51,595 nt of DNA. Origin: a virus (Duplodnaviria > Heunggongvirae > Uroviricota > Caudoviricetes). The stretch is from IMG/VR virus record IMGVR_UViG_2711768017_000018. One strand, given 5' to 3'. Shown in pieces: positions 49,801 to 51,595 of this stretch (positions are counted from its first letter, which is position 1; every line of letters begins with the position of its first letter). The position numbers are program-made.

Positions 49801-51595
49801 AAATACTGCATAATAGATGTTTCATTGTTCATAAATGGTGACAACCCATTTCATTTTAATTTTTTAAAAGAAGATGAATTAAGAGATTTTTCTAGCATCC
49901 TTATTAGTTACGGATATCACCAACAGTTTAAAAGTTATGCATTGTTTAAAATAGACAACCATCTTGCTCCTTCTTTGGTTTTAAATAAATCAATGATAGA
50001 AAATAATATTATTGAAATGAATAAGTAACTCACCGGGTGCAGCCGGTTATGATGGAGAAATGATATGAATACCTTGTTTTTACTGATGGCTGAATTCAAT
50101 ACCCCAAACATTGAACTCTCAGCAGTTAGTCAAAAATACTTTGGTATGAGTCCAGCCACAGCAGAAGCAAAAGCAAACGCTTGTAAGTTGCCTGTACCTA
50201 CATATCGCATCGGTACATCACAAAAAGCAAAACGTTGCATCAATATTCAGGATCTTGCGGAATACATAGACAAAAGACGAGAAGAAGGACGTATCGAGTG
50301 GGAACAGGTCAGAACAGGCAAACAGAAGGGCAAAGAACATCACTAAAGAAAAAACCCGCCTAAAGGCGGGTTTTCAAAAAGCACCAGCTATGATCATGCT
50401 GCTTTGCGACGACGAAGCTTACCCTGCTGCTCTTTACCAGAGACAGTAGCGTGAGTGAACGCATTAGGAGCAGCCTTCATCAGAACTTCAACAGCAGCAC
50501 CCATACCTGCGAATGCTTTCATTGTGTCGAACTTAACCTGTGGCTTGGTTGCTTTTTGATCTTCCATAGAAAACTCCAGAAGCTATACCGAAACAATTCC
50601 TGTTGTTTACTCATCATCAATAGATGATACGCAATATTTATTTTTAAATTTAAGGTTCTTTGGCGTAACTTCATCAGATATATCAAAACCGTCCAGAATT
50701 CTATTGAATGTAGCTTCTGGCATATCATCATGAACGGAAATCTCACCCGATCGCTGCTTTCTAACCATGTTATCCACTCGCCAAATTATAGCTTCAGCGT
50801 AAACAACATAACTTGGATGCTTGATAAAGCGATGATCACCAGAATTCAAGACGCAAGACGGATCGTGGGGGACACCATCCTTGATACTAGAAATATTAAC
50901 AACTAAAACACAATAACAATCGTTAACGGGGTAATAAACAGGATCATTACAAATCACATGAAGATGATTGCATGGCCCAGTTGGGGCAAGCACAGTTCCT
51001 TTCCTGTATGGCTGATAATCCGTCATGATAATTGCAAAGAAAATTCCTTAAGTTTCTGAGATTCTTCCATTTTGCCAATTATACGATTAGCCTCATCCTC
51101 GCTTTTACCCTCACTGATCAGCATTTCTTTCAGGTCTATAGGCTTACGAGAATTGCCAGGATTGTGCCACTCTGGACAAACGCTTTCTAAATGCGTCATG
51201 TTTGCGAGATCAAATCGGTTCATATGCCCATACAGAGAATAGATTTCATCTAAAATCCGGATATCTGCACGGCTCAACTCATCAAAGACCTCGTCTGCAT
51301 CCATTTCCCTCGGATCTGAACGCAACAACACATCATGCCCGTTCGTCTCTATCAGGTTGTACCAGTAGTCACCAATACCTTCAGCCTTACCACGAATCAA
51401 GTTCAGCGTATTCGACATGACTGGACCAAATTTCATAGAGTAAAGGCTATCTTCGCCGATCATCCTGCCATGCTTCAAAATCGACTTGCGGTTAGACAGA
51501 TAGAGCAGCTTCATCAATTTCAGATATGCCATGCGCCCACCTCGCTTAAGAAGTAGGTATGCAGCCATTTGAGCTACTTTTTCTTCGCAAAACAT

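What the first reader, a model, noticed from the sequence alone, without database searches (positions are those of the whole stretch)
50394..51595. Panacea (DUF4065)-like gene with overlapping Cys/His-rich partner and a 57-aa third gene, cut by the window edge
The last ORF carries motifs I associate with the Panacea/DUF4065 antitoxin domain (YLKLMKLLYLSNR, KFGPVMSNTL). Its stop overlaps by 4 nt the start of a 139-aa Cys/His-rich protein with no recognisable domain, followed by a 57-aa ORF and a strong terminator. Panacea domains are known to pair with many unrelated toxins, so the partner could be a novel toxin or effector. The upstream end of the operon is outside the window.
Basis: partly seen in the sequence, partly recalled or inferred. 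Interest (0 to 1): 0.55.

Follow-up and report, generated by a model that had tools for sequence, protein, structure and literature searches.

The report
Prophage PanA–MazF-like toxin–antitoxin pair
The window ends in an ordinary two-gene toxin–antitoxin module, a Panacea-domain antitoxin plus a MazF-fold toxin of an already described family, carried as cargo at the edge of an E. coli prophage; the 57-aa gene next to it is not part of the module.

Summary
On the minus strand there is a 190-aa Panacea/DUF4065 protein (Pfam PF13274, E=1.8e-18). Its stop overlaps by 4 nt (ATGA) the start of a 139-aa Cys/His-rich protein. A 57-aa ORF and a strong terminator follow.

The coding part of the operon is not cut. 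The PanA ATG is the last codon of the window; only the promoter lies outside. About 250 bp further on is the dusA remnant that marks the prophage end (attR).

PanA sits directly upstream of this partner in 25 of 26 loci from alpha-, beta- and gammaproteobacteria. The partner family is cluster "T6" of Kurata et al. 2022 (PNAS). That paper showed the Pseudomonas moraviensis T6 member to be toxic, neutralised and bound by its PanA, and a specific inhibitor of protein synthesis.

The 57-aa gene is phage-backbone DNA next to xis. It is absent from all other PanAT loci, and in phage mEp460 it is present without PanAT.

Verdict: a new, untested member of a known kind, with low to moderate interest. 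The open points are the toxin's chemistry (conserved His21/Asp55/Cys58/His65 instead of the MazF Arg/Thr) and whether the module defends against phages.

The parts
51023..51595 (-). panA: 190-aa antitoxin, a standalone Panacea (DUF4065) domain at residues 27-137 with a C-terminal helical extension (helix 166-189 in the model). The ATG is the last codon of the window.
   Evidence: Pfam PF13274 E=1.8e-18; phrog_1281 E=3.5e-26; RefSeq name 'Panacea domain-containing protein' WP_000458583.1; AF2 model pLDDT 91.3; 204 homologous clusters, those listed all carrying PF13274.
50607..51026 (-). panT: 139-aa putative toxin with a MazF/Kid-like beta-barrel plus three helices. It belongs to Kurata 2022 cluster T6. 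Conserved residues are H21, D55, C58, H65, [ST]46-47, S72, Y76, G113 and S117. Its start overlaps the panA stop (ATGA).
50394..50567 (-). 57-aa ORF of unknown function (phrog_2741). It runs in the same direction and is probably co-transcribed here, but it is not part of the conserved module. It is phage-backbone DNA next to xis.
   Evidence: phrog_2741 E=8.4e-36; absent from loci L003-L028; present in mEp460 beside xis without panAT; found in only 5 phage records.
50350..50375 (-). Intrinsic terminator ending the panA-panT-57aa transcript. It lies 4 nt from the stop of the convergent xis (PrtN-family) gene.
   Evidence: 11-bp stem, 6 GC pairs, 4-nt loop, T-run; sequence read directly.

Best explanation
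This is a type II toxin-antitoxin module of the PanAT class, carried as accessory cargo at the att-proximal end of a lambdoid E. coli prophage integrated in dusA.

PanA (190 aa, a standalone Panacea domain with a C-terminal helix) and PanT (139 aa) are translationally coupled through the ATGA overlap. They are transcribed leftwards from a promoter lying just inside attR, outside the window.

PanA binds PanT directly and keeps it inactive. When freed, PanT, a highly diverged MazF/Kid-fold protein, blocks protein synthesis. The most likely route is endoribonuclease activity.

Shown here: domain identity, fold, strict gene pairing, and family identity with Kurata's cluster T6. Shown in the literature for a homologue only (P. 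moraviensis): toxicity, neutralisation, complex formation and specific inhibition of translation. Inferred: RNase chemistry, expression in the lysogen, and the biological role. That role would be abortive-infection or superinfection defence with PanA as the sensor, or stabilisation of the prophage. The 57-aa ORF is a neighbouring phage gene and not a component.
For: - Pfam Panacea hit far above threshold.
- PanA lies directly upstream of the partner in 25 of 26 genome loci across alpha-, beta- and gammaproteobacteria, most often with a 4-nt overlap (13 of 24).
- More distant PanAs (40-41% identity) in a Citrobacter prophage and in Pseudomonas keep the same partner family (hhalign E=1e-45 and 2e-34).
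- Kurata 2022 Dataset S1 lists my loci L008 and L007 in cluster T6, together with P. reinekei and P. moraviensis. My A1 profile hits the cluster representative (P0198, >=90% identity) that holds the P. reinekei protein at E=1.8e-32.
- P. moraviensis PanAT is scored 'TA', forms a complex in pull-down, and specifically inhibits 35S-Met incorporation. HHpred assigned it to EndoA/PemK/MazF.
- Pseudomonas PanAs retrieved with the window's PanA begin MIFSEQKVAQ, exactly the extension Kurata added to P. moraviensis PanA.
- There is a sigma-70-like site TTGACC-17-TAAACT and a GAGG Shine-Dalgarno upstream, conserved in free phage genomes.
- The pair is in 208 of 5426 complete E. coli genomes, always chromosomal.
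Against: - Nothing has been tested for this E. coli pair itself.
- There is no sequence-level link to MazF/PemK: no Pfam hit for the window protein or for any of 76 family members. The HMM search against PDB sequences is negative. hhalign against a small MazF/Kid/EndoA alignment gives probability below 1%.
- The family's conserved residues (H21, D55, C58, H65) are not the MazF Arg29/Thr52 pair, so the chemistry could differ.
- Several other predicted PanT proteins proved non-toxic in E. coli (cluster T1: E. coli MOD1, phage Emek).
- No PADLOC model matches, so a defence role is conjecture. I found no report of this pair in a defence screen.
Confidence: 0.8

Rival explanations
1. The module works as a PanAT pair, but PanT is not a MazF-type RNase. 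The MazF-like barrel would carry a different active or metal site, built from the conserved His21/Asp55/Cys58/His65. That site could be a Zn site or a Cys-His-Asp type centre, acting on another component of the translation machinery.
For: H21 is conserved in 76 of 76, D55 in 74, C58 in 75 and H65 in 74 diverse family members. The MazF catalytic Arg is not evident, and no sequence profile links the family to PemK. For the homologue, only inhibition of translation was shown, not RNA cleavage.
Against: The fold match is to RNase toxins. By secondary-structure register, His21 falls on strand beta-2 where MazF has Arg29, and the [ST][ST] at 46-47 ends the strand where MazF has Thr52-Thr53. That mapping is my inference and was not computed. 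A His could replace Arg as the general acid/base. I could not obtain model coordinates to test whether the four residues cluster.
Confidence: 0.15
2. The 139-aa protein is not a toxin at all. The pair would be a non-toxic phage accessory module, like the PanA-adjacent T1 proteins that were not toxic in E. coli.
For: In Kurata's Table S1, E. coli MOD1 and Salmonella phage Emek partners were 'not toxic'. The window protein lacks the canonical MazF catalytic residues.
Against: Those proteins belong to cluster T1, which is unrelated to this family (hhalign probability 0.3% for the Emek partner). The family here is T6, whose one tested member was toxic and neutralised. Strict pairing with overlapping genes across three proteobacterial classes is typical of TA modules.
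Confidence: 0.1
3. It is a three-component system in which the 57-aa protein is a required third partner (regulator, chaperone or second effector).
For: The 57-aa ORF runs in the same direction. It is 39 nt downstream with its own GGAG, has no terminator in between, and shares the terminator at 50375-50350.
Against: No homologue of the 57-aa protein lies near any of the 26 other PanAT loci. In mEp460 the same gene (98% identical) lies next to xis with a different 177-aa gene in place of PanAT. Kurata found that third genes are only sporadically associated with PanAT pairs.
Confidence: 0.04
4. PanT is a CcdB-like gyrase poison rather than a translation inhibitor.
Against: All better hits are MazF/Kid RNases. 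The validated T6 homologue specifically inhibits protein synthesis, not DNA synthesis.
Confidence: 0.03

Closest known systems
PanAT of Pseudomonas moraviensis (PanT cluster T6; Kurata et al. 2022, PNAS 119:e2102212119)
   Same: - The antitoxin has the same architecture: standalone Panacea, no N-terminal domain, about 185-190 aa.
- Gene order is the same (antitoxin first) with overlapping genes.
   Different: - About 36% (toxin) and 41% (antitoxin) identity to the nearest Pseudomonas proxies I could read.
- This copy sits in an E. coli lambdoid prophage next to attR. The P. moraviensis copy was scored 'NotPhage'.
- This copy has not been tested.
MazEF / Kid-Kis (PemIK) type II TA systems
   Same: - The toxin has the same fold (SH3-like barrel of the CcdB/MazF superfamily).
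- It is a bicistronic, antitoxin-first, translationally coupled operon.
- A homologue gives a translation-inhibition phenotype.
   Different: - The antitoxin is a Panacea-domain protein, not an AbrB/MazE-type DNA-binding antitoxin.
- The toxin does not match PF02452 and lacks the Arg/Thr catalytic pair.
- The toxin has extra C-terminal helices (104-116 and 122-131).
SocAB (Caulobacter crescentus), the founding DUF4065 system
   Same: The antitoxin carries the same Pfam domain (SocA_Panacea).
   Different: - SocA works as a ClpXP adaptor that degrades SocB, and SocB blocks the DnaN clamp.
- Here the NCBIfam SocA equivalog scores 13.5 bits against a cut-off of 190.
- The partner is unrelated to SocB.
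CapRel(SJ46), a fused toxSAS-antitoxin phage-defence protein (Zhang et al. 2022, Nature 612:132; PMC9712102, listed but not read)
   Same: From my own knowledge: it is prophage-encoded, its C-terminal antitoxin region is related to PanA, and it senses a phage capsid protein. That gives a precedent for PanA acting as a sensor.
   Different: - It is a single fused polypeptide with a toxSAS effector, not two genes with a MazF-fold effector.
- No trigger or defence phenotype is known for the pair in this window.

Membership tests
Panacea / DUF4065 (Pfam PF13274) antitoxin domain | Significant match to the Pfam SocA_Panacea model above the gathering score | tested here: met
   E=1.8e-18, 67.9 bits against a cut-off of 25.7, model positions 1-109 of 113. 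The homologues listed all carry PF13274.
PanAT type II toxin-antitoxin systems (Kurata 2022) | [quoted passage not shown] | tested here: met
   4-nt overlap here. PanA lies directly upstream of the partner in 25 of 26 loci from three proteobacterial classes. The third gene is not conserved.
PanAT type II toxin-antitoxin systems (Kurata 2022) | The partner is toxic when expressed alone and is neutralised by cognate PanA through direct binding | not testable with these tools
   Shown only for the P. moraviensis T6 homologue: scored 'TA', pull-down complex, block of 35S-Met incorporation.
PanT cluster T6 (Kurata 2022, Dataset S1) | Homology to proteins listed in cluster T6 | tested here: met
   L008 (Pantoea septica LMG 5345, overlap -4) and L007 (strain 2016-Iso4, overlap -1) are my own tblastn hits (E=1e-48 and 3e-49). 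Both are listed as T6 with the same overlaps. The cluster representative (P0198, >=90% identity) that holds the P. reinekei protein, a T6-listed species, is hit by my profile at E=1.8e-32. The P. moraviensis sequence itself could not be fetched.
MazF/PemK/Kid toxin family (Pfam PF02452) | Sequence-profile match to PemK_toxin | tested here: not met
   No Pfam hit for the window protein or for any of 76 family members. No PDB sequence hit.
MazF/PemK/Kid toxin family (CcdB/MazF fold superfamily) | CcdB/MazF-type SH3-like barrel fold | tested here: met
   [not shown]
MazF/PemK/Kid toxin family | Catalytic Arg (MazF R29) and Thr (T52) or equivalents | tested here: inconclusive
   There is no conserved Arg. 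An invariant His21 lies on strand beta-2 and a conserved [ST][ST] at 46-47 ends strand beta-4.
SocAB (type VI TA) | Match to the SocA equivalog; partner is SocB | tested here: not met
   NF047745 scores 13.5 bits against a cut-off of 190. The partner has a MazF fold, not that of SocB.
Catalogued anti-phage defence systems (PADLOC-DB v2.0.0) | Match of any component to a defence-system model | tested here: not met
   No hit for PanA, PanT or the 57-aa protein at E<=0.1.
Tripartite TA (toxin-antitoxin plus accessory or chaperone) | A third gene conserved with the pair | tested here: not met
   Homologues of the 57-aa protein occur only in the E. coli loci. The gene occurs without the pair in mEp460.

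The most novel reading that the evidence does not exclude
The T6 PanT family has at least 2,713 clusters at 50% identity and no Pfam model. It may have re-used the MazF barrel for a different chemistry, centred on the near-invariant His21/Asp55/Cys58/His65. In prophages, the pair may then act as an abortive-infection defence in which the Panacea domain senses an incoming phage protein and releases the toxin. Its position in a variable cargo slot between xis and attP of dusA-integrating lambdoid phages would fit such a role.
Probability: 0.15. Interest if true: 0.6.

Novelty: new member of a known kind. Interest (0 to 1): 0.25.

Why it matters
On its own this is a routine annotation gain. An E. 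coli and Salmonella prophage gene present on at least 1,000 contigs (the look-up's counting cap) and labelled 'hypothetical' can be named a PanT (cluster T6) MazF-fold toxin, paired with a PanA antitoxin.

Three further points give it modest value.
1. The T6 family is large, has no Pfam model, and has a conserved His/Asp/Cys/His set unlike canonical MazF. Its biochemical target is still open.
2. The pair occupies a variable cargo slot next to attP in dusA-integrating lambdoid phages. A reverse-transcriptase (DRT-class) defence pair sits at the other prophage end, so this is a tractable E. coli system for asking whether PanAT modules defend against phages and what PanA senses.
3. RefSeq's 128-aa start call for the toxin is probably too short.

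Tried and rejected
1. Sequence-level link to MazF. The Pfam scan of the protein and of 76 family members, the HMM searches against PDB sequences, and hhalign against a small MazF/Kid/EndoA alignment were all negative. The relation rests on fold only, plus HHpred as reported by Kurata.
2. Complex prediction. The PanA:PanT interface is therefore untested.
3. afdb50 fold search. The library was unavailable.
4. Link to the 'not toxic' pairs of Kurata's Table S1 (E. coli MOD1, phage Emek). These are cluster T1. The Emek partner is unrelated to this family (hhalign probability 0.3%), although its PanA is a distant homologue. I rejected this as evidence against toxicity.
5. Zn-site idea built on H21/H23/C26/C58/H65. 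H23 and C26 are conserved only among close relatives (27 of 76 and 16 of 76). Only H21, D55, C58 and H65 survive, and I could not test whether they cluster in space because model coordinates are not exposed.
6. Defence-system identity. There is no PADLOC hit, no mention of DUF4065/Panacea in the E. coli functional defence screen, and no later PanAT papers beyond the two PNAS studies.
7. Fetching the P. moraviensis PanT sequence. It could not be found by name or accession. P. reinekei, another T6-listed species, was confirmed instead.

Full report
**1. What is in the sequence**

Three ORFs lie head to tail on the minus strand at the right end of the window.
- 51595..51023, 190 aa.
- 51026..50607, 139 aa.
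- 50567..50394, 57 aa.

They are followed by a hairpin (11-bp stem, 6 GC pairs) and a T-run at 50375..50350. The first stop and the second start overlap as ATGA. The 139-aa protein has 6 Cys and 6 His.

On the other strand, converging on the same terminator, is a PrtN-family excisionase at 50065..50346 (Pfam PF11112 E=3e-23; phrog_1300 'excisionase').

**2. Where it lies**

The window is an E. coli lambdoid prophage integrated into the 5' end of dusA.
- Identical DNA occurs in many complete E. coli chromosomes.
- In strain CDF6, the bases beyond the window are a 250-bp spacer, a 105-nt dusA pseudogene fragment (attR), then the chromosomal DUF2713 family gene, zur and lexA.
- The left end of the window is chromosomal pspG and dusA, followed by the integrase.
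- In free phage genomes (SKA5, Lys8385Vzw) the order is xis, 57-aa gene, 139-aa gene, PanA gene, dusA-like attP, int.

So the PanA ATG, which is the last codon of the window, is the true start. It is the RefSeq start, and homologues are 184-191 aa with the same MF(C/S)E.K.AQMA N-terminus. The only part outside the window is the leader and promoter. A TTGACC-17-TAAACT site and a GAGG Shine-Dalgarno are present there, and they are conserved between prophage and phage copies. These are consensus matches only.

**3. The first gene**

Pfam SocA_Panacea (PF13274) matches at E=1.8e-18, 67.9 bits against a gathering score of 25.7. The NCBIfam SocA equivalog does not match (13.5 bits against 190). The AlphaFold model is confident (pLDDT 91.3). 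It shows the Panacea core followed by a long C-terminal helix, residues 166-189. There is no N-terminal HTH, PAD1 or zinc domain. This is therefore a 'standalone' PanA in the sense of Ernits et al. 2023, who report that in such antitoxins the Panacea domain itself neutralises the toxin.

**4. The partner**

The partner matches no Pfam, NCBIfam or PADLOC model; it does match one PHROG of unknown function, phrog_19071, E=3.4e-31. A word-indexed search found 62 clusters at 90% identity, mostly Enterobacterales, Vibrio and Shewanella. An exhaustive profile search found 2,713 clusters at 50% identity with E<=1e-3, of which 935 have E<=1e-10. None of 76 diverse members has a Pfam match.

The AlphaFold model built on 32 homologues is confident (pLDDT 92.0, pTM 0.85). 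It is a five-stranded barrel followed by three helices.
- CcdB scores 7.3 and the type III toxin CptN 6.7. The next hit drops to 5.4.
- The best 40 Foldseek hits are all MazF/Kid, with target-normalised TM-score (TMt) about 0.6.

Sequence profiles do not see this relation.

**5. Is the pairing real?**

A pattern scan of one genome per species returned 26 loci encoding a relative of the partner. In 25 of them a PanA homologue lies immediately upstream on the same strand. The remaining locus is cut at the contig end. Most often (13 of the 24 loci with both genes) the genes overlap by 4 nt. The hosts span Enterobacterales, Methylococcales, Sutterella, Burkholderiales, Sphingomonadales, Rhizobiales and Rhodobacterales.

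Two more distant PanAs (40-41% identity) are again followed by an overlapping member of the same partner family (hhalign E=1e-45 and 2e-34). One is in a Citrobacter prophage, between the tail genes. The other is in a Pseudomonas chromosome, with a reverse-transcriptase gene about 0.7 kb further downstream. The 57-aa protein has no homologue in any of these loci.

**6. It is already in the literature**

Kurata et al. 2022 (PMC8832971) searched DUF4065 neighbourhoods and defined 88 putative toxin clusters. Their Dataset S1 lists Pantoea septica LMG 5345 and 'Yersiniaceae bacterium 2016Iso4' in cluster T6, antitoxin first, with overlaps of -4 and -1. These are exactly my loci L008 and L007, with the same overlaps.

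T6 also holds Proteus, Pluralibacter, Photorhabdus, Halomonas, many alphaproteobacteria, P. reinekei and P. moraviensis. The 90%-identity cluster whose representative (P0198) my profile hits at E=1.8e-32 includes the P. reinekei protein.

The P. moraviensis T6 pair is one of the pairs the paper validated.
- It is annotated 'EndoA/PemK/MazF-family RNAses' by HHpred and scored 'TA'.
- PanT co-purifies with PanA.
- PanT specifically inhibits 35S-methionine incorporation.
- The ten residues the authors added to the P. moraviensis PanA, MIFSEQKVAQ, are the N-terminus of the Pseudomonas PanAs that my search with the window's PanA retrieved.

I could not fetch the P. moraviensis toxin sequence itself.

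The 'not toxic' PanA neighbours from E. coli MOD1 and Salmonella phage Emek belong to cluster T1. The Emek protein is unrelated to the family studied here.

**7. The 57-aa ORF**

It is a real, conserved small phage gene (phrog_2741, E=8e-36). In the phage collection it occurs in only five records: SKA5, Lys8385Vzw and three mEp460 entries. In mEp460 it sits next to the same xis, but the space between it and int holds a different 177-aa orphan gene.

Other phages with this xis diverge immediately downstream of it (hits H6-H11). So the segment between xis (with the 57-aa gene where present) and attP is a variable cargo slot, and panAT is one of its occupants. Here the 57-aa gene is probably co-transcribed, since there is a 39-nt gap and no terminator. 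It is not part of the module.

**8. Mechanism**

Best-supported reading: a type II TA. PanA and PanT are made in coupled fashion, PanA binds and silences PanT, and free PanT arrests translation.

The RNase step is inferred from the fold. The family's conserved polar residues are H21 (76/76), D55 (74/76), C58 (75/76), H65 (74/76), [STC]46 (72/76), [ST]47 (75/76), S72, Y76, G113 and S117.

By secondary-structure register, H21 sits on strand beta-2 where MazF has Arg29, and the [ST][ST] pair ends the strand where MazF has Thr52-Thr53. This mapping is my inference from known MazF structures and was not computed. Whether D55, C58 and H65 form part of the active site or bind a metal is open.

The biological role (abortive-infection or superinfection defence, or prophage addiction) is conjecture. 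Three things suggest it. The module lies in a cargo slot. A DRT-class reverse-transcriptase defence pair sits at the other prophage end. Ernits et al. 2023 propose that Panacea is a sensor. No defence database model matches.

**9. Verdict**

The Panacea call is right. The 'novel toxin' hope is not borne out, because the partner belongs to a described and partly validated PanT family with a MazF fold. The third gene is a bystander. The pair is common: 208 of 5,426 complete E. coli genomes, always chromosomal, and at least 1,000 contigs (the counting cap) in the protein collection.

It is a new, untested member of a known kind. Interest is low to moderate. The residual value lies in the unresolved chemistry of T6 toxins and in a convenient E. 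coli prophage setting for testing a defence role.

Noticed in passing
window 3297-3848 (+) and 3820-5196 (+): A SLATT-domain protein (PADLOC RTasSLATT, E=1.5e-56) is followed by an overlapping reverse transcriptase (PADLOC RT_UG17, E=1.1e-158). This is a DRT-class anti-phage defence pair sitting just after int (1668-2765) and dinI. The prophage therefore carries accessory cargo at both ends.
   Followed up: partly
window 49195-50028 (+): A 277-aa ORF (RefSeq calls it 260 aa) with a hydrophobic N-terminal segment. It matches phrog_14996 (E=3e-178) but has no Pfam, NCBIfam or PADLOC hit, and its GC content is only 28-32%. It lies between yfdQ and xis and is absent from phages SKA5, Lys8385Vzw and mEp460. 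It looks like a separately acquired accessory gene of unknown function.
   Followed up: partly
window 50607-51026 (-); L001 9608-9994: RefSeq annotates the toxin as 128 aa (WP_014640052.1), starting at a GTG at Val12. Phage records and the family alignment (conserved M1, P6, G10; ATGA overlap with panA in 13 of 24 loci) support the 139-aa form.
   Followed up: yes
[not shown]
   Followed up: no
L036 3231-3764 (-) (phage mEp460 F853_gp23): In mEp460 the slot that holds panAT in this window (between the 57-aa gene and int) holds an unrelated 177-aa protein with no Pfam or PADLOC match. This points to a variable cargo hotspot next to attP in dusA-integrating lambdoid phages.
   Followed up: partly
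window 1-1579 and beyond 51595 (L001 10850-10954): The left end of the window is chromosomal (pspG, and intact dusA at 542-1579 on the minus strand). The displaced 5' fragment of dusA lies about 250 bp beyond the right end. Free phage genomes carry a dusA-like segment at attP, so integration rebuilds the gene.
   Followed up: partly
window 10705-17348: The tail-fibre, tail-fibre-assembly and lom region is mosaic relative to the otherwise 99-100% identical prophage of strain CDF6. It shows blocks of 88-96% identity and unaligned gaps, as expected for exchange of host-range modules.
   Followed up: no
L029-L031 3001-3983; L032 3001-5711: Other copies of the same PanA/T6 pair sit as an insert inside a Citrobacter prophage tail module (between the YdaY-like and tape-measure genes). 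In Pseudomonas fluorescens a copy has a reverse-transcriptase gene (RVT_1) about 0.7 kb downstream, separated by two small ORFs. These are further mobile or defence-type contexts.
   Followed up: no
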